DNA of 64,000 nt from the NCBI RefSeq assembly GCF_016026235.1, contig NZ_CP065613.1; one strand, given 5' to 3'. Below, piece after piece: positions 27,733 through 63,607 of this stretch. This stretch comes from Escherichia coli. Lineage in GTDB: Bacteria; Pseudomonadota; Gammaproteobacteria; Enterobacterales; Enterobacteriaceae. A program made the translations under genes and the position numbers. How positions within the stretch are numbered: position 1 is the stretch's first letter; every line of letters begins with the position of its first letter. Below the pieces are notes generated by a model. It ran no database searches and was not told the origin of the DNA. It was given only the letters and a program-made list of their open reading frames with translations.

Positions 27733-28005
27733 TTTTTCAAATTGTGTGATTAAATAATTGAACATTAATGATGATTTATAGCATCATTATTCTATAACAT
27801 GAATAAACGGATTGAATGTGTTATGTTAAAAATGAGTTTATACGTAATAATATTGTTATTTCCCTTTCAGATTAGTGCAGCCATTACTAGCAAGGAAAGT
27901 GAGGTTGTTTCACCATTATTAATGGATGTTAATTCTTCACTAACAATGGAAAATATTTCTGAATTATCCACATCATCGGAACCATCGCAACAGGGGGTAT
28001 TTCCC

Positions 28006-29297
28006 TGAGGGATCCCCAGAAAATTTAGTAAACCATTATCATATTGGTATACCGTTGCTGTAGAACTTTCAGCCCTGCGTCAAGTGACAGTGTGTTTAGT
28101 ATGAGTGGAGAATGTCGAATCACATTCTCCGCCAGTTTTAATAACGAGATGACTCGCCTGTGCTTCACTGTATTTGCCTGATATTTATGATGTATCCCTT
28201 TGTTTTCCAGGCTGAAACCGCTTAACCACATAATGATACTGGCTAATGTTGCGATCAGACTCAATACCGTGACCCGCCCGGATGAATGACTGGCACCAAA
28301 CCGTAGTCCAAATCCCCAGCGAGGATTTTTTTCATCCCTGAAATTTTGCTCAATTTGCATTCTACGGCTGTATAATTTCATTACCTGTTTTGGCGAGAAC
28401 TCAGTACTGTTTGTGAAAATAAACCATGGTGATTTCCCGGCAGTACGAGCTTTAGCCGTCACCGATGGTCTGGTTGCTCTTTCCTTCGAGCGTTTAAATC
28501 TACGACCTTTAGGCTTACTTTTATAAAGATAAAAATGCCCTTCATGTTGTGCATTTTTATCTCGACCCAGCAGGCCTTCACCTAAATAAATTGCTGTCGT
28601 TGATGCTTTTGTGCCTGAGTCCGACACCTTTTCCCAGCCATTACCAACATTGTAATAATGATTGCCCAGTACCCGGCAAATATAGGTCCAGCCACGGGAG
28701 CGGAGCTGTTGGAACCATCGCCCCTGAAAACCGGCATCTGTAATAACAATGACATCAGTCCCGGGGGAAAAGCACTCAGCAAGCGATTCCAGAAAACGCT
28801 CATGTACATCTGCATTCGCTGTCTGTGATGATGGAACGACACAACTCATCAACGGTAAAGAACGCCCGTCACATGCCAGGCTTGCCCGCAAAAGCTGAAA
28901 ACGAGAGGCATGATAAGCACTCCAGTCAATGAGTATCACAACACGAGACATTCCCCGCGTAATCTTTTGGGTAATTCGCTGAAAAATGGTGGAAACCTCA
29001 TTTTGCAAATGTCGATTCCCCAACAGTCGATCCACCCGCTTTATTTTGTTTTTAACTGATGCCGTACCGGTTAAATGACGCCCGATACTGGTAAGTGTGA
29101 GGGAAGCGCCATTTATTACAGCATTAGTTGCGTCAATCAGTGATTTTTGACGGTAAAGATGCAAAGGGGCCAGTATATTGTTAAGGAAATTTTGGCATAA
29201 TGAACGTGCAGGCATAGTGGTGATCTCCTTGAAATTGTTAGCACAATCAATTAGATCACATCTCACTATGCCTGTCTTGTTTTCTGGGGATTCCTCA
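28006..29297 (-). mobile_element. IS4-family-like insertion sequence, copy 1 (intact), approx 1292 bp
   Basis: Terminal inverted repeats TGAGGGATCCCCAGAAAA / TGAGGAATCCCCAGAAAA; 11-bp direct repeat GGGGTATTTCC at 27994-28004 and 29298-29308; single transposase ORF. Confidence 0.8.
28025..29215 (-). CDS. IS transposase (intact)
   Basis: Track ORF 28025..29266; start placed at ATG 29215 (MPARSLCQNFLNN...) with RBS AAGGAG, matching the start in copy 2. Confidence 0.8.
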   Translation of the reverse strand: MPARSLCQNFLNNILAPLHLYRQKSLIDATNAVINGASLTLTSIGRHLTGTASVKNKIKRVDRLLGNRHLQNEVSTIFQRITQKITRGMSRVVILIDWSAYHASRFQLLRASLACDGRSLPLMSCVVPSSQTANADVHERFLESLAECFSPGTDVIVITDAGFQGRWFQQLRSRGWTYICRVLGNHYYNVGNGWEKVSDSGTKASTTAIYLGEGLLGRDKNAQHEGHFYLYKSKPKGRRFKRSKERATRPSVTAKARTAGKSPWFIFTNSTEFSPKQVMKLYSRRMQIEQNFRDEKNPRWGFGLRFGASHSSGRVTVLSLIATLASIIMWLSGFSLENKGIHHKYQANTVKHRRVISLLKLAENVIRHSPLILNTLSLDAGLKVLQQRYTNMIMVY

Positions 29298-29635
29298 GGG
29301 GTATTTCCTGTAATATGTACTCGACTTCATCCTGGCTCTGTAATGAAACGCCAGTTATTAACCGGCTGGGGGCCTGTTTTTATAATTGGGGATGATCCTT
29401 TTTCTCTGCGCTGGATGAGTGAACATCTGGAGATCCTTAAATCGCTAAATGCCCTTGGTTTGGTTGTTAATGTTGAATCAGTAGAACGAATGGAGGTATT
29501 ACAGCAGCGGGCTGATGGGTTATTGTTATTGCCAGTTATCTGCGATAATTTCGTGCAAACTCTGCAATTAAATGCTTATCCGGTATTAATCACAGAGATG
29601 GAAATATCACAATGATTAATAACATAATTACTGCA

Positions 29636-37179: not shown

Positions 37180-37929
37180 ATGTCCTTGCCGTCGATTCCA
37201 TCCTTTGTATTGTCGGGATTACTGTTGATTTGTTTGCCGTTTTCTTCATTTGCCAGCGCCACCACATCACATATCTCTTTCAGCTACGCCGCCCGCCAGC
37301 GGATGCAAAACCGTGCGCGTTTATTAAAACAGTACCAAACCCATCTGAAAAAGCAGGCCAGCTATATTGTGGAAGGCAATGCCGAAAGCAGAAGGGCGCT
37401 GCGCCAGCACAACCGCGAACAGATAAAACAGCATCCAGAATGGTTTCCTGCGCCGCTCAAGGCGAGTGACAGACGCTGGCAGGCGCTGGCGGAAAACAAC
37501 CACTTTTTAAGCAGCGATCACCTGCATAACATCACCGAAGTGGCGATTCACCGCCTGGAGCAGCAGCTTGGCAAGCCTTACGTCTGGGGCGGCACGCGGC
37601 CTGATAAAGGCTTCGACTGTAGCGGGTTGGTTTTTTATGCCTACAACAAGATCCTCGAGGCGAAGCTCCCGCGCACGGCCAATGAGATGTATCACTACCG
37701 CCGGGCAACGATTGTGGCGAATAACGACCTGCGCCGGGGAGATTTGCTGTTTTTCCATATTCACAGTCGTGAGATTGCCGACCATATGGGGGTGTATCTG
37801 GGCGACGGTCAGTTTATTGAGTCACCGCGCACCGGGGAAACCATTCGGGTAAGTCGGTTAGCTGAACCTTTCTGGCAGGATCACTTTTTAGGCGCGCGGC
37901 GGATTTTGACGGAGGAGACGATTTTGTAG
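37180..37929 (+). CDS. yafL: YafL NlpC/P60-family peptidase lipoprotein
   Basis: Track ORF 37120..37929; start trimmed to MSLPSIPSF...; NlpC/P60 motifs DCSGLVFYAY and HMGVYLGDGQFIES. Confidence 0.8.
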   Translation: MSLPSIPSFVLSGLLLICLPFSSFASATTSHISFSYAARQRMQNRARLLKQYQTHLKKQASYIVEGNAESRRALRQHNREQIKQHPEWFPAPLKASDRRWQALAENNHFLSSDHLHNITEVAIHRLEQQLGKPYVWGGTRPDKGFDCSGLVFYAYNKILEAKLPRTANEMYHYRRATIVANNDLRRGDLLFFHIHSREIADHMGVYLGDGQFIESPRTGETIRVSRLAEPFWQDHFLGARRILTEETIL

Positions 37930-38010
37930 GACGGATAAGGCGTTTACGCCGCATCCGGCAGTTGTGCACGGATGCCTGATGCGACGCTGACGCGTCTTAT
38001 CATGCCTACA
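37930..38010. repeat. REP elements
   Basis: GTAGGACGGATAAGGCGTTTACGCCGCATCCGGCA... palindromes after yafL. Confidence 0.65.
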
Positions 38011-38104
38011 AATTTGTGCGTTTTTGCGAGCCGCTTTCCCGTTATTCCATCACCTCATTGCCGACCTTTCCTTTTCTTCTTACCGTTGAGAAAAAGGAGT
38101 CGCC

Positions 38105-38602
38105 ATGTCTGAATATCGTCGGTATTACATCAAAGGGGGAACCTGGTTTTTCACGGTTAACCTACGAAATCGTCGAAGCCACCTTCTGACCGCTCAGTTC
38201 CAGATGCTCCGTAACGCCATTATTAACGTTAAGCGAGACAGACCTTTTGAAATTAACGCCTGGGTCGTTTTGCCGGAGCATATGCATTGCATATGGACAT
38301 TACCCGAAAGCGATGATGATTTTTCCTCGCGCTGGCGGGAGATTAAAAAGCAGTTCACCCATGCTTGCGGATTGAATAATATCTGGCAACCGCGTTTTTG
38401 GGAGCATGCCATTCGCAATACCACAGATTACCGACATCATGTTGATTATATTTATATAAATCCAGTGAAACATGGCTGGGTAAAGCAGGTGAGAGATTGG
38501 CCATTCTCAACGTTCCATCGCGATGTGGCGCGAGGGTTATATCCCATTGATTGGGCGGGAGACATAACGGATTTAAATGCTGGCGAGCGTATTATTTTAT
38601 AA
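38105..38602 (+). CDS. rayT: RayT (TnpA-REP) REP-associated tyrosine transposase
   Basis: 165 aa with HxH-type motif (LPEHMHCIW) and Y1 transposase-like C-terminus; flanked on both sides by REP clusters. Confidence 0.8.
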   Translation: MSEYRRYYIKGGTWFFTVNLRNRRSHLLTAQFQMLRNAIINVKRDRPFEINAWVVLPEHMHCIWTLPESDDDFSSRWREIKKQFTHACGLNNIWQPRFWEHAIRNTTDYRHHVDYIYINPVKHGWVKQVRDWPFSTFHRDVARGLYPIDWAGDITDLNAGERIIL

Positions 38603-38604
38603 TT

Positions 38605-38785
<181 letters not shown>

Positions 38786-53954: not shown

Positions 53955-54767
53955 TTACCCAAACGCCTCTACAATCACCATCGCCGCCCGTTCTCCCGCT
54001 TTGCCATCCATAAACGCATCGCAATAATGATGGCGAATTTCCGCCAGCTTCGTCTGCACCGCCCCCCAGTCAAACGCCTCTGACAGCAAATAACGCAGTT
54101 CCGCGACATTATGAGCCACCGGCAATATTTCGCGAATCCGCTGGTCGGCGCTCTCTGCCGTGGAGTAACTTTTCTCACCGTCGAGCAAATCATTCATGCC
54201 CGGAAAGTCGAGCAGGATCACCCGCTTATCAACGTGGATAGCATCGAAAATAAAACCGCTGTTATCGGTCAGCACGTAATCGGCCTTTGCCAGTAGCGCC
54301 AGCGTGTGGCGGGCGGAGTCGGTGCGCTGTTTTAAGTGCCTGCGCGCCAGGGCCAGCGATGCGGCTTCTTCCGGGCGTGAGCAGGTGCCGTGGTGCAGTT
54401 TGCAAATCAGGTTCACATCACCGCTTAAGCGGCCCAATTTTTCTGCCCAGTGGGGCAGGGAGCTTAGTGCGCCAAACGTTGGGGCGTAGAGCACCGTAGG
54501 TTTACGGTCATCCAGTTCGATATTTCTCGGCAACGCGCGATCAAACGTGCCGTTATGCCAGGCGTCGAAGCGCGGGTTGCCGACCACTTTTGCGCTGCCG
54601 AAATGTTCCAGCGCCTGCTGGCTGTAGTGGCTGTAACACAAAATGCGCTGATAAAAACGGTTCCAGTCGGCGTGGTTCCACGTCTCTTTAGCTAAGCCGT
54701 ACATAGCGCGGACGTTCACCGCTGCCAGGCCATTGAGTATGGCGTGTGGTAGGGGCTGACCAGGCAT
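53955..54767 (-). CDS. CDP-glycerol glycerophosphotransferase (TagF/TagB-like) C-terminal region
   Basis: 270 aa with TagF-family blocks GNPRFD, VLYAPTF, KLHH, YVLTDNSGFIFDAIHVDKRVILLD. Confidence 0.65.
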   Translation of the reverse strand: MPGQPLPHAILNGLAAVNVRAMYGLAKETWNHADWNRFYQRILCYSHYSQQALEHFGSAKVVGNPRFDAWHNGTFDRALPRNIELDDRKPTVLYAPTFGALSSLPHWAEKLGRLSGDVNLICKLHHGTCSRPEEAASLALARRHLKQRTDSARHTLALLAKADYVLTDNSGFIFDAIHVDKRVILLDFPGMNDLLDGEKSYSTAESADQRIREILPVAHNVAELRYLLSEAFDWGAVQTKLAEIRHHYCDAFMDGKAGERAAMVIVEAFG

Positions 54768-56392
54768 TTCACTCGCAGGCCGTGTGCCTGCATTGCCGAT
54801 AAGTGCATTCCTTTAAGCTGCGGGTCGTCGATGCTTTTTAGCGTTGCCAGCATCTCATCAAGAAACGGTTTAAACACGCGGTCGTTGATCACCAGCGTGC
54901 AGCTCTGCCCCTGCGCCTGTAGCGCGGTGATGATTGGGCGGTAGAGCGCGTAGTGGAAGGAGGTTTCCATAAAAAAGCCGATGGTGTCGGCGATGGGTAA
55001 TGCGGATGGCTTTGTGGCTACGGGTAACTTATTGAAATAGTGACCAATGTTGTCAGTCGCTTTTTTCTCTATATCGCTAAAGCCCGGTCGCTGATAACTA
55101 AGGCTCGGATAACAGGCCAGCCATTTGTCGGCGCGTAGCAGCGGCTGCCAGCAGGCTTCCAGCGAGTGCTCATCGTTGCTCATCTGCTGCGCCAGTTGCG
55201 GGTAGTAGCGGCTGTTCACCAGATAAGCGCATACCTTGCGGCAGTCCCGCGCGTGCACCAGCCCCGGCAAACTTTTTAGCATCGTTCCCTGCGAAATTTC
55301 GCCGCCAAGGATCATCACCTGCCAGGGAATTTTCGCCAGGCTCGCCAGCAGCGTGTTCAGCACCTGAATATGTTTCTCCTGCTTGAGAATAACCGCGTCA
55401 TCTTCCAGCAGCAGGTAGTTTTGCCAGCTGTGCTGTTGCGCCAGGCGCAGCGCCTGCAAGTGTGAATGGCGGCGGCCCCGTTGACCGTTTTCATCTTCAT
55501 TGGCGGCAAGGCGGGTGATCTTCTCGGGTGGAATATGCAGCAGTGCCAGTTCTTCACGGATCTGCTGTAAGCGATCCGGGCGTTTATCCAGATTCACGAT
55601 GACCACCTGATCAATCGCCTGATGGTTGATTGCCTGGTGATGAGTGGCGTTATGCAGACTCAGATAAGCGTTGCGTAGCAGCGGATCGCTGACGATGTCG
55701 CTCAGTTCGGCGTTTACAGGCGTGCTGGCCCCGAGAATAAAGTCTTTATCAAAGGTGTTGTGGCTGTGCGAGATACACAGAATCGTGCGCTCGCCGGGCA
55801 ACTGCAGCGGGTTAACGCTGAAATTGTTGGTGAAACTTTTCTCTTCGCTCAGATTGCAATCGTCATCGTAACGGTGCTTTTTCAGGTAGTTACAGTGATA
55901 GCAAAAGGTGCCGTTGAGGATGTTATGCGGGCCAAAGCTGCGGCTTTGAAAGATACGGTTGATATGGCTGTACCAGATGGGGATCTGGTCAGAACCGGAG
56001 ATGAGCGCCCGGTGTTTTTGCATTATGGCGATGGTGTAAGAGATTTTATCTGCCGGGTAGTAGTCGTCGTCATCCATGCAGAGGATATATTCGCCGCGCG
56101 CCAGTTCGTTGAGCATATTGCGTTTTTTGCCCAGCGGCAGTTTTTCCGGGTGATGGATGTAGCGGATGTTGAAGGACTCCGGCGTGCCATTGGTCAGGCG
56201 GTCGATGATGTGTTGATGGCTTTGCGGGGAGTCGTCGAGGATGACCAGTTCGCGGTGATCTGCCGGGTAGTCCTGATAGCGGTACATGTAGAGCAGGTAC
56301 GGCAGGAATGTGGCACGGTTCCAAGTTGGCGTGACGACGCTCACGAAGGGTTTTTCGCGGTGAGTAGCGAGTGTTTTGATGATGGTTTGCAT
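54716..56392 (-). CDS. Multidomain glycosyltransferase (GT2-like N-terminus, GT25-like middle, TagF-like tail)
   Basis: 558 aa; GT2-type start (VSVVTPTWNRATFLP...ILDDSP, DDD), central VVIVNLDKRPDRL block; overlaps the downstream TagF-like ORF by 52 nt in another frame. Confidence 0.6.
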   Translation of the reverse strand: MQTIIKTLATHREKPFVSVVTPTWNRATFLPYLLYMYRYQDYPADHRELVILDDSPQSHQHIIDRLTNGTPESFNIRYIHHPEKLPLGKKRNMLNELARGEYILCMDDDDYYPADKISYTIAIMQKHRALISGSDQIPIWYSHINRIFQSRSFGPHNILNGTFCYHCNYLKKHRYDDDCNLSEEKSFTNNFSVNPLQLPGERTILCISHSHNTFDKDFILGASTPVNAELSDIVSDPLLRNAYLSLHNATHHQAINHQAIDQVVIVNLDKRPDRLQQIREELALLHIPPEKITRLAANEDENGQRGRRHSHLQALRLAQQHSWQNYLLLEDDAVILKQEKHIQVLNTLLASLAKIPWQVMILGGEISQGTMLKSLPGLVHARDCRKVCAYLVNSRYYPQLAQQMSNDEHSLEACWQPLLRADKWLACYPSLSYQRPGFSDIEKKATDNIGHYFNKLPVATKPSALPIADTIGFFMETSFHYALYRPIITALQAQGQSCTLVINDRVFKPFLDEMLATLKSIDDPQLKGMHLSAMQAHGLRVKCLVSPYHTPYSMAWQR

Positions 56393-57092
56393 GATATGTT
56401 TACGAAGTAGATAAGGCCGGGAAAAACCGGCCTGAAAGCGTTAGCAAGGTAGCAGCGAAAACGCATAAAGCAGCGGCTCTGCGCAACATTCAGCCTGAAT
56501 TTGTTGGCGAATCAGCAGCGCATTTTCACTCTCTCGCCAGCGTTCAAACATGGCAAAGAGGGCGAAAATATCCTCCTGCCGCAGCGGAGAACCATCCAGC
56601 GTCCATAAACTGATTAACGTGCGGAGGAGATAAAAATCGCACACCAGCGGGAAATAATCCGCCCCGTCAGTCTGCCCAATCATATCGTGGTAAACGCGGT
56701 AAATCAGCCAGTTACGCATCATCCAGGGCGCGGTGGCAAAATGCTGTTGCCAGGTGGTTTGCCACTGCGTCTGAAGCTGCTGTTGTAACAGGGCTTCGCT
56801 GTTGGCGTCATGCAGCGTCAGTAAAGTAACCTGCAACGGCAGCGAGGCTTTGCGCGGGCTTTCCGGCAAAATCGACCAGTCAAACGCACAACCGCCGAGC
56901 AGCGTCATCAACTGGCGCGCCAGCTGTGGCACGGGTGGGAGCTGGGCGTACTGTGCCTGTAGCGTACCTTTTTTCGCATGATCGGCCAGCGCCTGTGGCA
57001 GCGTCGTCAAACGGGCCAGGATGTCTCCGTCTCTGCCCGGCATTTTGCTGGCGCGGGAGAGCAAAATCCCGACAGCATACAGGGAAAGCTCC

Positions 57093-58383
57093 TGAGGAAT
57101 CCCCAGAAAACAAGACAGGCATAGTGAGATGTGATCTAATTGATTGTGCTAACAATTTCAAGGAGATCACCACTATGCCTGCACGTTCATTATGCCAAAA
57201 TTTCCTTAACAATATACTGGCCCCTTTGCATCTTTACCGTCAAAAATCACTGATTGACGCAACTAATGCTGTAATAAATGGCGCTTCCCTCACACTTACC
57301 AGTATCGGGCGTCATTTAACCGGTACGGCATCAGTTAAAAACAAAATAAAGCGGGTGGATCGACTGTTGGGGAATCGACATTTGCAAAATGAGGTTTCCA
57401 CCATTTTTTAGCGAATTACCCAAAAGATTACGCGGGGAATGTCTCGTGTTGTGATACTCATTGACTGGAGTGCTTATCATGCCTCTCGTTTTCAGCTTTT
57501 GCGGGCAAGCCTGGCATGTGACGGGCGTTCTTTACCGTTGATGAGTTGTGTCGTTCCATCATCACAGACAGCGAATGCAGATGTACATGAGCGTTTTCTG
57601 GAATCGCTTGCTGAGTGCTTTTCCCCCGGGACTGATGTCATTGTTATTACAGATGCCGGTTTTCAGGGGCGATGGTTCCAACAGCTCCGCTCCCGTGGCT
57701 GGACCTATATTTGCCGGGTACTGGGCAATCATTATTACAATGTTGGTAATGGCTGGGAAAAGGTGTCGGACTCAGGCACAAAAGCATCAACGACAGCAAT
57801 TTATTTAGGTGAAGGCCTGCTGGGTCGAGATAAAAATGCACAACATGAAGGGCATTTTTATCTTTATAAAAGTAAGCCTAAAGGTCGTAGATTTAAACGC
57901 TCGAAGGAAAGAGCAACCAGACCATCGGTGACGGCTAAAGCTCGTACTGCCGGGAAATCACCATGGTTTATTTTCACAAACAGTACTGAGTTCTCGCCAA
58001 AACAGGTAATGAAATTATACAGCCGTAGAATGCAAATTGAGCAAAATTTCAGGGATGAAAAAATCCTCGCTGGGGATTTGGACTACGGTTTGGTGCCAGT
58101 CATTCATCCGGGCGGGTCACGGTATTGAGTCTGATCGCAACATTAGCCAGTATCATTATGTGGTTAAGCGGTTTCAGCCTGGAAAACAAAGGGATACATC
58201 ATAAATATCAGGCAAATACAGTGAAGCACAGGCGAGTCATCTCGTTATTAAAACTGGCGGAGAATGTGATTCGACATTCTCCACTCATACTAAACACACT
58301 GTCACTTGACGCAGGGCTGAAAGTTCTACAGCAACGGTATACCAATATGATAATGGTTTACTAAATTTTCTGGGGATCCCTCA
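57093..58383 (+). mobile_element. IS4-family-like insertion sequence, copy 2 (mutated), inverted relative to copy 1
   Basis: Same inverted repeats as copy 1; 11-bp direct repeat GGGAAAGCTCC at 57082-57092 and 58385-58395. Confidence 0.8.
57175..58364 (+). pseudogene. IS transposase pseudogene (nonsense codon plus 1-bp deletion)
   Basis: Relative to copy 1: CAG to TAG at approx 57410 and an A6 run where copy 1 has A7 (approx 58066-58071); track shows three ORF pieces. Confidence 0.75.
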
Positions 58384-58802
58384 GGGGAAAGCTCCGGGGT
58401 TAAATCACGGAGCGTGAGGGTACTCAAAATCACCTGGTTTACTATCGCATCGCGCGCGGAAAGCTCTGCGGAATTATCTTCCACAGGGCGGTAGGTGAGC
58501 TGTAAATCAAAGGCCCTGACATCGTTGAGCACCGCTTCGCAGCTGGCAATATCGGTCAATGACAGGCTCAGGCGAATCTCGTTTTTCCACACCTTGCGGA
58601 CGTATAAAGGCGAACCGGGGTGACGCGCTAAAAATTTGCGCACGTATTCCGGTTCGTAACATTCAATAAAACTCATAGGTGGCTTCCAGTCTTTAATGCT
58701 GTGCAGGATATGCAATAAGCGTGCCGGGGATTTTTGTAATTAAAAACAAGGGATTGGAAATCAGGCGGAAAATCCATTTCCGCTATGGGGAAGGTATTCG
58801 CG

Positions 58803-59231
58803 TTATTCCTGATAGAGAAAATCTGCTTCGCTGCCTAAAAACGACTGAATAAATTCATACTGGCGAATCAACAGCTCGCCGTTTTTATCGTTGTAGGCTT
58901 TGCAGCGTTCCGCTTTTTGCTCAAGGCGTTGCCACAACTGCTGTGCTGCCGCTTTTTGTACCGCAGGAAGCCAGGCAAATACCTGCGCCAGACCGTCACG
59001 ATTTACGCTAACACCGAGCATTTTCAGCAGGCTGTGCCGTTGATGGCTATGTCCATGCAACTGCTCATAGTGATGCATTATCTCCTCGTTTACTGCCAGC
59101 AGCTCCTCGCTGGCGCGGCGAATCATGCAGATCCGCTGGCGCTGGAGACGTTCGCGCAGGGAATCATACAGCGCGTCGTCGTCACGAATTCCCTGCAGCA
59201 ACGCCTTCACCTGTTGTAACCGGATACTCAC
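58803..59231 (-). CDS. lfgN: Lateral flagellar chaperone FlgN-like
   Basis: 142 aa helical protein downstream of flgM homolog; mainly positional. Confidence 0.5.
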   Translation of the reverse strand: MSIRLQQVKALLQGIRDDDALYDSLRERLQRQRICMIRRASEELLAVNEEIMHHYEQLHGHSHQRHSLLKMLGVSVNRDGLAQVFAWLPAVQKAAAQQLWQRLEQKAERCKAYNDKNGELLIRQYEFIQSFLGSEADFLYQE

Positions 59232-60421: not shown

Positions 60422-60757
60422 ATGGGGATCAGTTTTCAGCAGGCATTGGGAGTACATCCGCAGGCAGTGAAGTTACGTCTTGAGAGGACCGAGCTACTGA
60501 CTGCGAATCTGGCGAACGTTGATACGCCAAATTTCAAGGCTAAAGATATTGATTTTGCCAGGGAGATGCAACGGGCAAATAACGCGGCGGTGGATGTCCA
60601 GTACCGCGTGCCGATGCAGCCTTCCGAAGATGGCAACACCGTGGAACTGAACAGCGAACAGGCGCGGTTTTCACAAAATAGTATGGATTATCAAAGCAGT
60701 CTGACCTTTCTGAATCTGCAAATCAGCGGCATCAGAGAGGCCATTGAAGGGAAATAA
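60422..60757 (+). CDS. lfgB: Lateral flagellar rod protein FlgB homolog
   Basis: Track ORF 60392..60757; start trimmed to MGISFQQALGVHPQAVKLRLERTELLTANLANVDTPNFKAKDIDF. Confidence 0.8.
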   Translation: MGISFQQALGVHPQAVKLRLERTELLTANLANVDTPNFKAKDIDFAREMQRANNAAVDVQYRVPMQPSEDGNTVELNSEQARFSQNSMDYQSSLTFLNLQISGIREAIEGK

Positions 60758-60759
60758 GC

Positions 60760-61191
60760 ATGTCATTTACTGATATCTATCAGATTTCCGGCTCGGCGAT
60801 GACGGCGCAAACGCTACGTTTGAATACCGTTGCCAGTAACCTGGCGAATGCCAATGCGCCCGCCAGCAGCGAGGCGCAGGCGTATAAAGCGCGCAGCCCA
60901 GTGTTTGCGGCGGTGTATCACCACAGCTTGCTGGCGGGAACGCATCGCCATGCGATCGACGGTGCCAGCGTGCAGGTGCAGGACGTGCTGCAAACCGGCG
61001 GGGCGGTGAAACGCTATGAACCGCATTCGCCGCTCGCCGATGCTAACGGCGACGTCTGGTATCCCGACGTCAACGTGGTGGAACAGATGGCGGACATGAT
61101 GTCGGCCTCGCGCGATTTCGAAACCAATGTCGATGTGCTCAACAACGTGAAAAGTATGCAGCAAAGTTTGCTGAAACTGGGAGAAGCCTGA
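60760..61191 (+). CDS. lfgC: Lateral flagellar rod protein FlgC homolog
   Basis: 143 aa; FlgC-conserved N- and C-terminal blocks. Confidence 0.85.
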   Translation: MSFTDIYQISGSAMTAQTLRLNTVASNLANANAPASSEAQAYKARSPVFAAVYHHSLLAGTHRHAIDGASVQVQDVLQTGGAVKRYEPHSPLADANGDVWYPDVNVVEQMADMMSASRDFETNVDVLNNVKSMQQSLLKLGEA

Positions 61192-61904
61192 TGAATACCC
61201 TGGCGCTGAATGCGCAATCGCCGCAACCCACCGCCACGGCGGAAAGCAATAATGTGGCGGCCAGCGACACGACAAGCAGCAGCGATAGCTCGCCCGTCGA
61301 TACTTTCCTGACGCTGTTTGTCGCCGAGATCCAAAACCAGGACCCGACTGACCCGACCGACGCCACCGAATATATCGACCAGCTTTCGTCGATGGCGCAG
61401 GTGGCGATGATGGAAGAGATGAGTGTGCAGGCCAACACCAACGCGGTGCTGATGAGCAACATCCAGGTGATGGCGCTCGGTAACCTGGTGGGCGACGACA
61501 TTATGGTGCAGACCACCGCCTTGCAGGTGAGCGACCAGACCATAAATGGTCGCGCTACGCTGGACGACGCCTGTACCACCGCCGATCTCCACTTTACCGA
61601 TGCCGCAGGCGATGACTACACCGTCTCGCTGATCCCGGAAGGCAGTTCGTCCGTCGGGCCAGGGCAGGTGGATTTCTCGGTGAACCCTGCCGATTACGGT
61701 ATCCCGCCGGGCGATTACGACGTTTCGGTGGTCACCAATACCGGGGAAGAAGAGGTGCCGATTGAAGTGTCCGGCGAAGTGGAAGATGTGCGCATCCCGC
61801 TCGACGGCAGCTCTCCGGTGCTCAACGTTGCAGGCGTGGGCGAAGTGCCGTTCACCATGATTAGCCAGTTTGGCGTACCCGATGCCGACAGTAATGTAGC
61901 GTGA
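61191..61904 (+). CDS. lfgD: Lateral flagellar hook-cap protein FlgD homolog
   Basis: 237 aa; FLTLFVAEIQNQDPTDP motif typical of FlgD. Confidence 0.75.
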   Translation: MNTLALNAQSPQPTATAESNNVAASDTTSSSDSSPVDTFLTLFVAEIQNQDPTDPTDATEYIDQLSSMAQVAMMEEMSVQANTNAVLMSNIQVMALGNLVGDDIMVQTTALQVSDQTINGRATLDDACTTADLHFTDAAGDDYTVSLIPEGSSSVGPGQVDFSVNPADYGIPPGDYDVSVVTNTGEEEVPIEVSGEVEDVRIPLDGSSPVLNVAGVGEVPFTMISQFGVPDADSNVA

Positions 61905-61919
61905 TGTCCGGTGCCAAAT

Positions 61920-62008
61920 AGCCTGATGCGCTTCGCTTATCAGGCCAACACCAAAGTTATCGCCACCAGCACGCAGCTCGATGACGCGCTGTTCCAGGCA
62001 ATGTAATG
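61920..62008 (+). other. REP-like palindrome plus approx 20-codon coding remnant where lfgE is expected
   Basis: GCCTGATGCGCTTCGCTTATCAGGCC followed by an in-frame ...NTKVIATSTQLDDALFQAM-stop that overlaps the lfgF ATG as TAATG. Confidence 0.45.
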
Positions 62009-62743
62009 GACCGTTTGATTTATACCGCCCTGAGCGGTGCTTCTCAGACCCTGTACGAGCAGCAGATTAGCGCCAACAACCTGGCGAACGTCAACACCAA
62101 CGGTTTTCGCGCCGATATGGCGATGGCGACCAACGACAAGGTGAAAGGCAGCGGCTTCGACACGCGCTATATGGCGCAGGAAGGGGCCAGCGGCGTGAAC
62201 GACAGCACGGGTGTAGCGGAGAAAACCGAACGCCCGCTGGACGTGGCGATTCAGGGCGCGGGTTACATTGCGGTGCAGGATAAAAACGGCAACGAAGTCT
62301 ATACCCGCAACGGCAACATTCAGCAGGACGACCAGGGGCAACTGACTATCGACGGCAATCTGGTGCTGGGGGATAACGGGCCGATCATTCTGCCGCCGAA
62401 CGCCATTGCTTCGTTTGGCAGCGACGGCACGCTGTCGGTGACGCCCGATGACGGCGACGTAACCGCGACGATGGATATCGACCGCCTGAAGCTGGTGGAT
62501 ATCCCGGTCGCTAACCTGGCGAAAAATCCTGAAGGGATGCTGGTGACTAGCGACGGCATTCCGGCCCAGCGCGATGAAAACATCAAAGTCAGCGGCGGTT
62601 TTCTCGAAGGCAGCAACGTCTCGGCGGTGAGCGAGATGATGTCGTCCATCGCCATGAACCGCCAGTTTGAAGCGCAGATCAAAATGATGAAAACCGCCGA
62701 AGATATCAGCGACGCGGGCAACCGCTTATTGCGCGGCTCGTAA
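62006..62743 (+). CDS. lfgF: Lateral flagellar rod protein FlgF homolog
   Basis: 245 aa; MDRLIYTALSGASQTLYEQQISANNLANVNTNGFRAD. Confidence 0.8.
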   Translation: MDRLIYTALSGASQTLYEQQISANNLANVNTNGFRADMAMATNDKVKGSGFDTRYMAQEGASGVNDSTGVAEKTERPLDVAIQGAGYIAVQDKNGNEVYTRNGNIQQDDQGQLTIDGNLVLGDNGPIILPPNAIASFGSDGTLSVTPDDGDVTATMDIDRLKLVDIPVANLAKNPEGMLVTSDGIPAQRDENIKVSGGFLEGSNVSAVSEMMSSIAMNRQFEAQIKMMKTAEDISDAGNRLLRGS

Positions 62744-62749
62744 CCGCAC

Positions 62750-62800
<51 letters not shown>

Positions 62801-62821: not shown

Positions 62822-63607
62822 ATGAACGCAGCATTATGGATCAGCAAAACTGGCCTCTCGGCGCAGGATGCTGAAATGAGCGCGATTGCCAACAACATCG
62901 CCAACGTTAACACCACTGGCTTCAAGCGCGATCGGGTGATGTTTCAGGATCTGTTTTACCAGACCCAGGAAGCGCCGGGGGCGATGCTCGACCAGAACAA
63001 CATCATGCCGACCGGGCTGCAATTCGGTAGCGGCGTGCGCATTGTTGGCACCCAGAAAACCTTCACCGAAGGCAACGTTGAAACCACCGACAACGCGATG
63101 AATGTCGCCATTATGGGGCAGGTTTTTTTGCAGGTGCAAAAGGCCAATGGCGATATTGCCTATACCCGCGATGGCAATTTGCAGGTGAACGCTGACGGCG
63201 TGCTGACCAACTCGCAGGGCTTGCCGTTGCAGCTGGAAATCGACGTTCCGGCAGGGGCGACTAATGTTGCTTTTGGCGAAGACGGCACGGTGACGGCGAT
63301 CTTACCCGGCGACAGCGACGTGACCGAGTTAGGGCAACTGACGCTGGTGAACTTCGCCAACCCGGCGGGGCTTTCCGCCGAGGGCGACAACCTCTATCTG
63401 GAAACCGCCGCCAGCGGTCAGCCGACCGAAGGCGTACCGGGCGAAGATGGGCTTGGCACCTTGCAGGACAACGCCCTGGAAGGCTCAAACGTGGATATTG
63501 TCAACGAAATGGTGGCGATGATTACGGTGCAACGTGCGTACGAGATGAACGCCAAAATGGTGTCGGCGGCGGACGATATGTTGCAGTACATCAGCCAGAC
63601 GCTGTAA
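62822..63607 (+). CDS. lfgG: Lateral flagellar distal rod protein FlgG homolog
   Basis: 261 aa, highly conserved FlgG sequence. Confidence 0.9.
   Translation: MNAALWISKTGLSAQDAEMSAIANNIANVNTTGFKRDRVMFQDLFYQTQEAPGAMLDQNNIMPTGLQFGSGVRIVGTQKTFTEGNVETTDNAMNVAIMGQVFLQVQKANGDIAYTRDGNLQVNADGVLTNSQGLPLQLEIDVPAGATNVAFGEDGTVTAILPGDSDVTELGQLTLVNFANPAGLSAEGDNLYLETAASGQPTEGVPGEDGLGTLQDNALEGSNVDIVNEMVAMITVQRAYEMNAKMVSAADDMLQYISQTL

What the first reader, a model, noticed from the sequence alone, without database searches (positions are those of the whole stretch)
61905..62008. Hook gene lfgE appears to be missing between lfgD and lfgF
Only about 100 bp separate the flgD homolog from the flgF homolog, whereas a hook gene of approx 1.2 kb is expected there. 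The gap contains a REP-like palindrome GCCTGATGCGCTTCGCTTATCAGGCC followed by an in-frame approx 20-codon remnant ending in TAATG overlap with lfgF, consistent with the 3-prime end of a deleted upstream gene. Without a hook protein the lateral flagellum cannot be built, so the locus is probably non-functional in this strain.
Basis: partly seen in the sequence, partly recalled or inferred. Interest (0 to 1): 0.6.

Follow-up and report, generated by a model that had tools for sequence, protein, structure and literature searches.

The report
Lateral-flagellum hook gene deleted
In this E. coli strain the hook gene (lfgE) of the second, "lateral" flagellar system (Flag-2) has been cleanly deleted between two 9-base direct repeats, which is an ordinary case of an accessory gene cluster decaying.

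Summary
lfgD (61191-61904) and lfgF (62006-62743) are 101 nt apart. Intact E. coli Flag-2 loci carry there a REP-containing spacer plus a 1203-nt hook gene, lfgE. The window matches an intact locus (strain 4FM) minus 1244 nt. The break lies between two copies of TATCAGGCC. One copy is in the 3' arm of the first spacer REP. The other is at codons Y379-A381 of lfgE. One copy remains at 61938-61946. The last 22 codons of lfgE survive, 100% identical, and still overlap the lfgF start (TAATG).

Of 1279 complete RefSeq E. coli genomes that carry this region, only FDAARGOS_943 has the same junction. That genome is a separately assembled sister strain, 99.9% identical but with different IS positions, so an assembly artefact is unlikely. 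Its chromosome has no other lfgE-like DNA, only the primary-system flgE, which is 39% identical at protein level.

The lfgE deletion is the only Flag-2 lesion the two strains share. Each also carries its own IS insertions in the locus. The other structural genes in the window are intact, and their dN/dS against 4FM is about 0.00-0.17 (lfgM 0.57), so the loss is recent.

This is ordinary reductive evolution and of low interest.

The parts
60422..60757 (+). lfgB (Flag-2 proximal rod protein), intact
   Evidence: 111/111 aa aligned to the 4FM protein, 99.1% identity, no stops; annotated in the sister genome
60760..61191 (+). lfgC (rod protein), intact
   Evidence: 143 aa, 96.5% identity to 4FM
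61191..61904 (+). lfgD (hook-capping protein), intact
   Evidence: 237 aa, 98.3% identity to 4FM; stop TGA at 61902-61904
61905..61937 (+). Retained 5' part of the original lfgD-lfgE spacer, up to the breakpoint repeat
   Evidence: matches the first 33 nt of the 4FM and ST131 spacers with one substitution
61921..61946 (+). First REP of the lfgD-lfgE spacer BIME. The hairpin is kept but the conserved ...GGCCTAC tail is replaced by lfgE sequence (...GGCCAAC)
   Evidence: REP tail motif 15 matches against 0.46 expected; this copy carries its one mismatch exactly at the junction; hairpin in the centroid fold
61938..61946 (+). Deletion junction: the single surviving copy of the 9-nt direct repeat TATCAGGCC
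   Evidence: the intact locus has copies at L001 1757-1765 and 3001-3009; sequence to the left follows the REP copy and to the right follows the lfgE copy
61938..62006 (+). lfgE remnant: last 22 codons (aa 379-400) plus the TAA stop, which overlaps the lfgF ATG
   Evidence: (100% identity over 22 aa)
62006..62743 (+). lfgF (rod protein), intact. It has lost the upstream lfgE reading frame to which it was probably translationally coupled
   Evidence: 245 aa, 98.8% identity; the coupling is inferred from the TAATG overlap
62750..62790 (.). REP in the lfgF-lfgG spacer
   Evidence: arms 62757-62770 and 62773-62786; tail motif at 62753-62766
62822..63607 (+). lfgG (distal rod protein), intact
   Evidence: 261 aa, 98.5% identity
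63690..64000 (+). lfgH (L-ring protein), 5' part; runs off the window
   Evidence: in the sister strain this gene is split by ISEc60 just beyond the point corresponding to the window end
57092..58386 (+). ISEc60 (IS4 family) inserted in the Flag-2 lysine-N-methylase gene. Gene fragments lie at 56450-57091 and 58386-58676 on the minus strand. The insertion is absent from the sister strain
53958..56386 (-). Flag-2 glycosyltransferase gene with a 1-nt deletion near 54738-54741 (GGG run) that shifts the frame. This could be a sequencing error

Best explanation
The window carries an E. coli Flag-2 (lateral flagellar) locus. A spontaneous deletion between two 9-nt direct repeats (TATCAGGCC) removed the rest of the lfgD-lfgE spacer, the lfgE ribosome-binding site and start codon, and codons 1-378 of the 400-codon hook gene. 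The loss is 1244 nt if the ancestor had a 4FM-type spacer and about 1372 nt if it had an ST131-type spacer. One repeat lies in the 3' arm of the first spacer REP. The other is the N-Y-Q-A-N coding stretch near the lfgE 3' end. The likely mechanism is RecA-independent short-homology deletion (replication slippage or misalignment). The adjacent REP hairpin may have helped, but that is inferred. With no hook protein, this system cannot complete a hook-basal body. By the Salmonella paradigm it then cannot export the anti-sigma factor (LfgM) or switch on late genes such as lafA. So Flag-2 is dead in this lineage. lfgF may also be under-translated, because it has lost its TAATG-coupled upstream frame. 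The deletion predates the split of the window strain from FDAARGOS_943. Each lineage later acquired its own IS insertions in the locus.
For: The junction was reconstructed base by base against intact loci. Both repeat copies are present in intact loci and one copy is present in the window. The remnant is 100% identical to LfgE aa 379-400. 1278 of 1279 Flag-2-bearing complete genomes split the query where lfgE lies, and one shares the deletion. That genome differs from the window in IS positions and about 15 substitutions, so it is a separate assembly of a sister strain. Its chromosome has no second lfgE-like place, whereas the intact genomes listed have two. PGAP annotates nothing between lfgD and lfgF there. 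The junction 37-mer is absent from GTDB representatives and JGI metagenomes. Other Flag-2 structural genes in the window are full length. Their dN/dS against 4FM is 0.00-0.17, except lfgM at 0.57, at dS of roughly 0.04-0.2 (lfgN about 1.1), so inactivation is recent. The literature reports that gene and en bloc deletions and IS hits are common in enterobacterial flag-2 loci. It attributes the large lfhA-lafU deletion to direct repeats (PMC6993521).
Against: The mechanism is inferred from the junction alone. A longer 11-nt direct repeat (GGCACGCTGTC, L001 1830 and 2917) exists in the same interval and was not used, so repeat length alone does not explain the site. The rest of the window strain's genome could not be searched for a relocated lfgE. 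No expression or motility data exist. E. coli Flag-2 has not been shown to work in the strains examined in the two papers read here, even with lfgE present (PMC3032704; PMC4637896). So the phenotypic cost of the deletion is unknown.
Confidence: 0.9

Rival explanations
1. Assembly artefact: the assembler collapsed the region and lfgE is really present in the strain.
For: No read data could be inspected. The window shows single-base differences of a kind that could be base-calling errors.
Against: A 9-nt repeat is far too short to collapse an assembly. The identical junction occurs in FDAARGOS_943, which has different IS positions and was therefore assembled from a different isolate. Its chromosome has no leftover lfgE DNA.
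Confidence: 0.02
2. The deletion was made by REP-specific machinery: cleavage and rejoining by the REP-associated tyrosine transposase RayT, encoded next to the locus at 38105-38599, or REP-REP recombination. Under this reading it is not passive short-homology slippage.
For: The left breakpoint is inside a REP. rayT is intact beside lfhA. The number of REPs in this spacer varies between strains: none in A2, two in 4FM, four in ST131, so the site is dynamic. A longer non-REP repeat in the interval was not used.
Against: The right breakpoint is not a REP, only a 9-nt (12 of 13) match to a REP tail inside coding sequence. The crossover lies inside the stem arm, not at a flank where RayT is reported to cut (from memory, not tested). 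Retention of one repeat copy is the classic signature of slippage.
Confidence: 0.05
3. The system still functions because the primary-system hook protein FlgE substitutes for LfgE.
For: The sister genome keeps a Flag-1 flgE. The two hook proteins align end to end with conserved termini.
Against: Identity is only 39%. In characterised dual-flagellar bacteria (Vibrio parahaemolyticus, Aeromonas) the two systems do not share structural parts (general knowledge, not tested here). Further lesions have accumulated in both sister lineages, including lfgH and lfgL in FDAARGOS_943. That argues selection on the locus has been lost.
Confidence: 0.03

Closest known systems
E. coli / Enterobacterales Flag-2 locus decay (Ren et al. 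2005, as cited in the papers read; De Maayer et al. 2020, PMC6993521)
   Same: Same locus, gene order and chromosomal site (yafL-rayT ... dinB). Inactivation by deletion and IS insertion is described as frequent. The well-known lfhA-lafU en bloc deletion is also attributed to direct repeats.
   Different: Here a single internal structural gene (lfgE) is excised and the rest of the locus is left in place. The paper read does not describe this allele, and only 1 of 1279 complete genomes with the region shares it.
E. coli 042 Flag-2 with the lfgC frameshift
   Same: An otherwise complete Flag-2 locus disabled by one lesion in an essential axial-structure gene.
   Different: That lesion is a frameshift in a rod gene. 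This one is a 1.2-kb deletion of the hook gene. In this strain lfgC is intact.
Spontaneous deletions between short direct repeats in E. coli (the lacI deletion studies of Albertini et al. 1982; cited from general knowledge)
   Same: Two short direct repeats in the parent, one copy retained, and exact loss of the interval, with a palindrome adjacent to one endpoint.
   Different: Nothing mechanistically different can be seen. This is a natural allele, not a selected laboratory mutation.
REP/BIME elements
   Same: The retained palindrome has the REP stem and belongs to a dispersed family.
   Different: This copy has lost its conserved CTAC/GTAG tail and its inverted partner REP, so it is a truncated REP and no longer part of a BIME.

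Membership tests
Flag-2 (lateral flagellar) locus of Enterobacterales | Syntenic clusters lfhAB-lfiRQPNM-lafK-lfiEFGHIJ and lfgNMABCDEFGHIJKL, placed between yafL/rayT and dinB | tested here: met
   every cluster 1 gene and lfgN to lfgH are found in order in the window. lfgE is the only conserved gene missing from that stretch.
Flag-2 (lateral flagellar) locus of Enterobacterales | A complete set of conserved structural genes, i.e. a potentially functional locus | tested here: not met
   lfgE is reduced to 22 codons. The lysine-N-methylase gene is split by ISEc60. Cluster 3 lies outside the window.
Flagellar hook protein FlgE/LfgE | Full-length protein of about 400 aa with N- and C-terminal D0 helices and central D1/D2 domains | tested here: not met
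   Only residues 379-400, part of the C-terminal helix, remain. There is no start codon context from lfgE and no N-terminal export region.
REP (repetitive extragenic palindrome) / BIME | Imperfect palindrome of about 30-35 nt with a conserved GTAG/CTAC end, present in many dispersed extragenic copies | tested here: met
   tail motif 15 matches against 0.46 expected; the same REP, with a full CTAC tail and an inverted partner, is in the intact spacers of 4FM and ST131; hairpin predicted. In the window the tail is truncated at the junction.
Short-homology (direct-repeat) deletion | Two copies of a short direct repeat flank the lost segment in the intact allele, and exactly one copy remains at the junction with no filler DNA | tested here: met
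   TATCAGGCC at L001 1757 and 3001; a single copy at window 61938-61946; the flanks switch from REP-type to lfgE-type sequence across it.
Short-homology (direct-repeat) deletion | RecA-independent replication slippage as the actual mechanism | not testable with these tools
   This would need genetic assays.

The most novel reading that the evidence does not exclude
The breakpoint inside a REP, next to an intact rayT gene and in a spacer whose REP number varies between strains (0, 2 or 4), could mean that REP/RayT activity can excise neighbouring genes. It would do so by pairing a REP arm with a chance REP-like 9-13-mer inside coding DNA. That would make REPs an active agent of gene loss, not passive bystanders.
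Probability: 0.05. Interest if true: 0.4.

Novelty: new member of a known kind. Interest (0 to 1): 0.12.

Why it matters
The finding has little general importance. It gives a base-exact account of how one essential gene was lost from an accessory flagellar system, and it shows that this deletion came before the IS-driven decay seen in two sister strains. For annotators, it marks the Flag-2 locus of this lineage as non-functional even though about 35 genes still look intact. One by-product is modestly useful. Flag-2 structural genes show strong purifying selection between E. coli lineages (dN/dS mostly below 0.1). That implies the system is used somewhere in nature, although the two laboratory studies read here did not detect its activity.

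Tried and rejected
(1) The first relocation test used a query that included the lfgF-lfgG REP. It hit 5425 genomes with a median of 24 places, so the place count was uninformative. I repeated it with REP-free coding sequence.

(2) Scans for the junction 37-mer in GTDB species representatives and JGI metagenomes found nothing. The allele is rare, and the window's own genome was not identified.

(3) Ren et al. 2005 (PMC545627) and Canals et al. 2006 (PMC1347325) are not held. Statements about them rest on citations in other papers or on my own knowledge.

(4) An RNA fold of 61895-62015 predicts the REP hairpin, but the whole stretch is no more stable than shuffles (z = -0.08). There is no evidence for a structured RNA element beyond the REP.

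(5) I looked for relaxed selection in the 15 window-versus-FDAARGOS substitutions. Nine are synonymous, five non-synonymous and one intergenic, which is not informative.

(6) Strain IH5, which showed lfgD next to an RHS fragment, looks like a scrambled or mis-assembled region and was not pursued.

(7) A literature search for REP-associated deletions returned nothing directly relevant.

Full report
**What is in the sequence**

The ORF list and raw sequence show an lfgB-lfgC-lfgD-lfgF-lfgG-lfgH series on the + strand. lfgD ends with TGA at 61902-61904 and lfgF starts with ATG at 62006-62008. The 101 nt between them contain the palindrome GCCTGATGCGCTTCGCTTATCAGGCC (61921-61946). They also contain an open frame ending ...YQANTKVIATSTQLDDALFQAM-TAA, whose stop overlaps the lfgF ATG as TAATG.

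**Comparison with intact loci**

A megablast of 61400-62500 against 5426 complete RefSeq E. coli genomes found the region in 1279 of them.
- In 1278 genomes the query splits into two places, at query positions about 506 and 539. Every one sampled has an annotated flgE (the lateral hook gene, lfgE) under or between the pieces.
- Only FDAARGOS_943 (NZ_CP065615.1) is collinear, at 100% identity.

Strain 4FM (L001) has a 143-nt lfgD-lfgE spacer. The spacer holds two inverted REPs, forming a BIME:
- GCCTGATGCGCTTCGCTTATCAGGCCTAC
- GTAGGCCGGATAAGGCGTTCACGCCGCATCCGGCA

After the spacer comes a 1203-nt lfgE whose TAA overlaps the lfgF ATG.

**The junction**

The 9-mer TATCAGGCC occurs twice in the intact allele. 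One copy is at L001 1757-1765, in the 3' arm of REP1. The other is at L001 3001-3009, in codons AAC-TAT-CAG-GCC-AAC of lfgE. With one mismatch the similarity extends to 12 of 13 nt.

The window has one copy, at 61938-61946. REP-type sequence lies on its left and lfgE-type sequence on its right. So the window equals the intact allele minus 1244 nt.

The REP tail motif CTTATCMGGCCTAC has 15 matches in the window against 0.46 expected. The copy at 61936-61949 carries its single mismatch (CAAC in place of CTAC) exactly at the junction.

The spacer itself varies among strains:
- 23 nt with no REP in strain A2
- 143 nt with two REPs in 4FM
- 271 nt with four REPs in an ST131 strain

The loop sequence of the retained REP identifies it as REP1 in every case. 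The deleted length is therefore 1244 nt, or about 1372 nt if the ancestor had the longer spacer.

Eight distinct direct-repeat pairs of at least 9 nt exist in the interval. One of them is 11 nt long and was not used. The site choice is therefore not explained by repeat length alone. Proximity to the REP hairpin may have contributed, but that is inference.

**What remains of lfgE**

tblastn with the 400-aa LfgE of 4FM matches only residues 379-400 (61938-62003, 100% identity). Its other hits are the paralogous rod genes lfgG and lfgC, plus noise. The remnant lacks the lfgE ribosome-binding site, start codon and N-terminal export region. An in-frame ATG at 61926 lies inside the REP stem with no evident Shine-Dalgarno sequence.

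**Is the gene elsewhere, or is this an assembly error?**

The window is not FDAARGOS_943 itself.
- The two are about 99.9% identical.
- The window lacks that strain's IS5, IS21, IS600, IS1A and both of its local ISEc60 copies.
- The window has ISEc60 at 28004-29298 and 57092-58386, where FDAARGOS_943 has none.

Two separately assembled sister genomes therefore share the identical junction. That makes an assembly collapse very unlikely, and a 9-nt repeat could not cause one anyway.

A composite query made FDAARGOS_943 the top row. It joined window lfgBCD to the reverse complement of the 4FM lfgE interior. FDAARGOS_943 showed one place, while all listed intact genomes showed two. So there is no lfgE-like DNA elsewhere on that chromosome at megablast sensitivity.

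The same trick with K-12 flgE gave two places. The primary-system hook gene is therefore present, but LfgE and FlgE share only 39% identity.

The junction 37-mer is absent from GTDB species representatives and from JGI metagenome contigs. The rest of the window strain's own genome could not be searched.

**State of the rest of the locus**

Proteins translated from the 4FM Flag-2 locus were searched against the window. Results:
- All cluster 1 genes (lfhA to lfiJ, lafK) and lfgN, M, A, B, C, D, F, G are full length without stops. lfgH is intact as far as the window runs.
- The lysine-N-methylase gene is split by ISEc60.
- The glycosyltransferase gene has a 1-nt deletion in a GGG run, which may be a sequencing error.

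In FDAARGOS_943, PGAP reports ISEc60 in the glycosyltransferase gene and in lfgH, an IS5 insertion, and an internal stop in lfgL. None of these IS insertions is in the window. The lfgH insertion site and lfgL lie beyond its end.

The only Flag-2 lesion seen in both strains is the lfgE deletion. It is therefore older than their split and plausibly the first inactivating event. The IS hits are younger and lineage-specific.

dN/dS between the window and 4FM is 0.00-0.10 for most structural genes. lfgN is 0.14, lfgA 0.17 and lfgM 0.57. dS is mostly about 0.04-0.2 and about 1.1 for lfgN. The locus was under strong purifying selection for nearly all of its history, so the loss is recent.

**Consequences (inferred from established flagellar biology, not tested here)**

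Without hook subunits the Flag-2 basal body cannot proceed past the rod and FlgD-cap stage. The hook-completion checkpoint then keeps the anti-sigma factor (LfgM) in the cell, and late genes such as lafA stay off. lfgF has also lost the upstream reading frame to which its TAATG overlap probably coupled it. It now sits 101 nt and one REP hairpin downstream of the lfgD stop codon.

**Literature context**

De Maayer et al. 2020 (PMC6993521) report the following:
- 22% of enterobacterial flag-2 loci lack at least one conserved gene.
- IS insertions are frequent in these loci.
- The common lfhA-lafU en bloc deletion has direct repeats at its ends.
- 24 of 100 E. coli strains carry the locus, which agrees with 1279 of 5426 here.

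E. coli Flag-2 function was not demonstrated in the W genome paper, which also notes the lfgC frameshift in strain 042 (PMC3032704). It was not demonstrated in ST131 EC958 either (PMC4637896).

**Verdict**

The feature is a real, lineage-specific deletion of the lateral hook gene between short direct repeats. It sits in an IS-rich genome that is losing accessory systems; in the sister strain the neighbouring T6SS cluster is also hit by IS elements. This is a new instance of a well-known kind of event and is of low general interest.

Noticed in passing
window 42799-63234 (15 substitution sites) and 54741: Polarised with strain 4FM as outgroup (52742 could not be polarised), 12 of the 15 substitutions between the window and FDAARGOS_943 are derived in the window: 11 G:C->A:T transitions and one G->T. 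Eight of them hit the methylatable C of CCGG (50355, 51321, 60900, 63234), CCWGG/Dcm (42799, 56324) or GCGC (48160, 48606). The window also has 1-nt deletions. This is either 5-methylcytosine deamination hot spots or systematic base-calling errors at methylated motifs plus homopolymer errors, as in a nanopore-only assembly. Single-base lesions in this window should be treated with caution.
   Followed up: partly
window 57092-58386: An ISEc60 (IS4 family) copy splits the Flag-2 lysine-N-methylase gene. Its own transposase gene carries a CAG->TAG nonsense change and a 1-nt deletion relative to the copies in FDAARGOS_943. A second ISEc60 copy at 28004-29298 has neither defect.
   Followed up: partly
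window 38105-38599 (+): An intact rayT (yafM, REP-associated tyrosine transposase) gene lies directly beside lfhA at the edge of the Flag-2 locus. It is flanked by clusters of REP-like repeats at 37925-38013 and 38631-38781.
   Followed up: no
lfgD-lfgE spacer in other genomes: L005 4014-4036, L001 1724-1866, L006 1096-1366: The number of REPs in this one intergenic spacer varies between E. coli strains: none (23 nt), two (143 nt) and four (271 nt). The site is a hotspot of REP/BIME gain or loss.
   Followed up: partly
window ~2351-28000, compared with L008: A type VI secretion cluster (tss genes, vgrG, hcp, Tle1-like effector) fills the left part of the window. In FDAARGOS_943 it is disrupted by IS21 (in tssC), IS600 (in vgrG) and IS1A, none of which is in the window. 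The two sister strains have therefore undergone independent, recent IS activity.
   Followed up: partly
window 58806-59231 (-), lfgN: lfgN is far more divergent from the 4FM allele (78% aa identity, dS about 1.1) than its neighbours (93-99% aa identity). This suggests a recombination boundary or allele replacement at the 5' end of cluster 2. The cargo gene fic, present in 4FM between the glycosyltransferase and cytidylyltransferase genes, is absent from the window.
   Followed up: no
L007 (E. coli IH5, NZ_CP168949.1 5037606-5045912): In this genome fragments of lfgD and of a hook-basal body gene lie among fragments of T6SS, RHS and conjugation genes, nearly all flagged as partial. It looks like a scrambled or mis-assembled region.
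   Followed up: no
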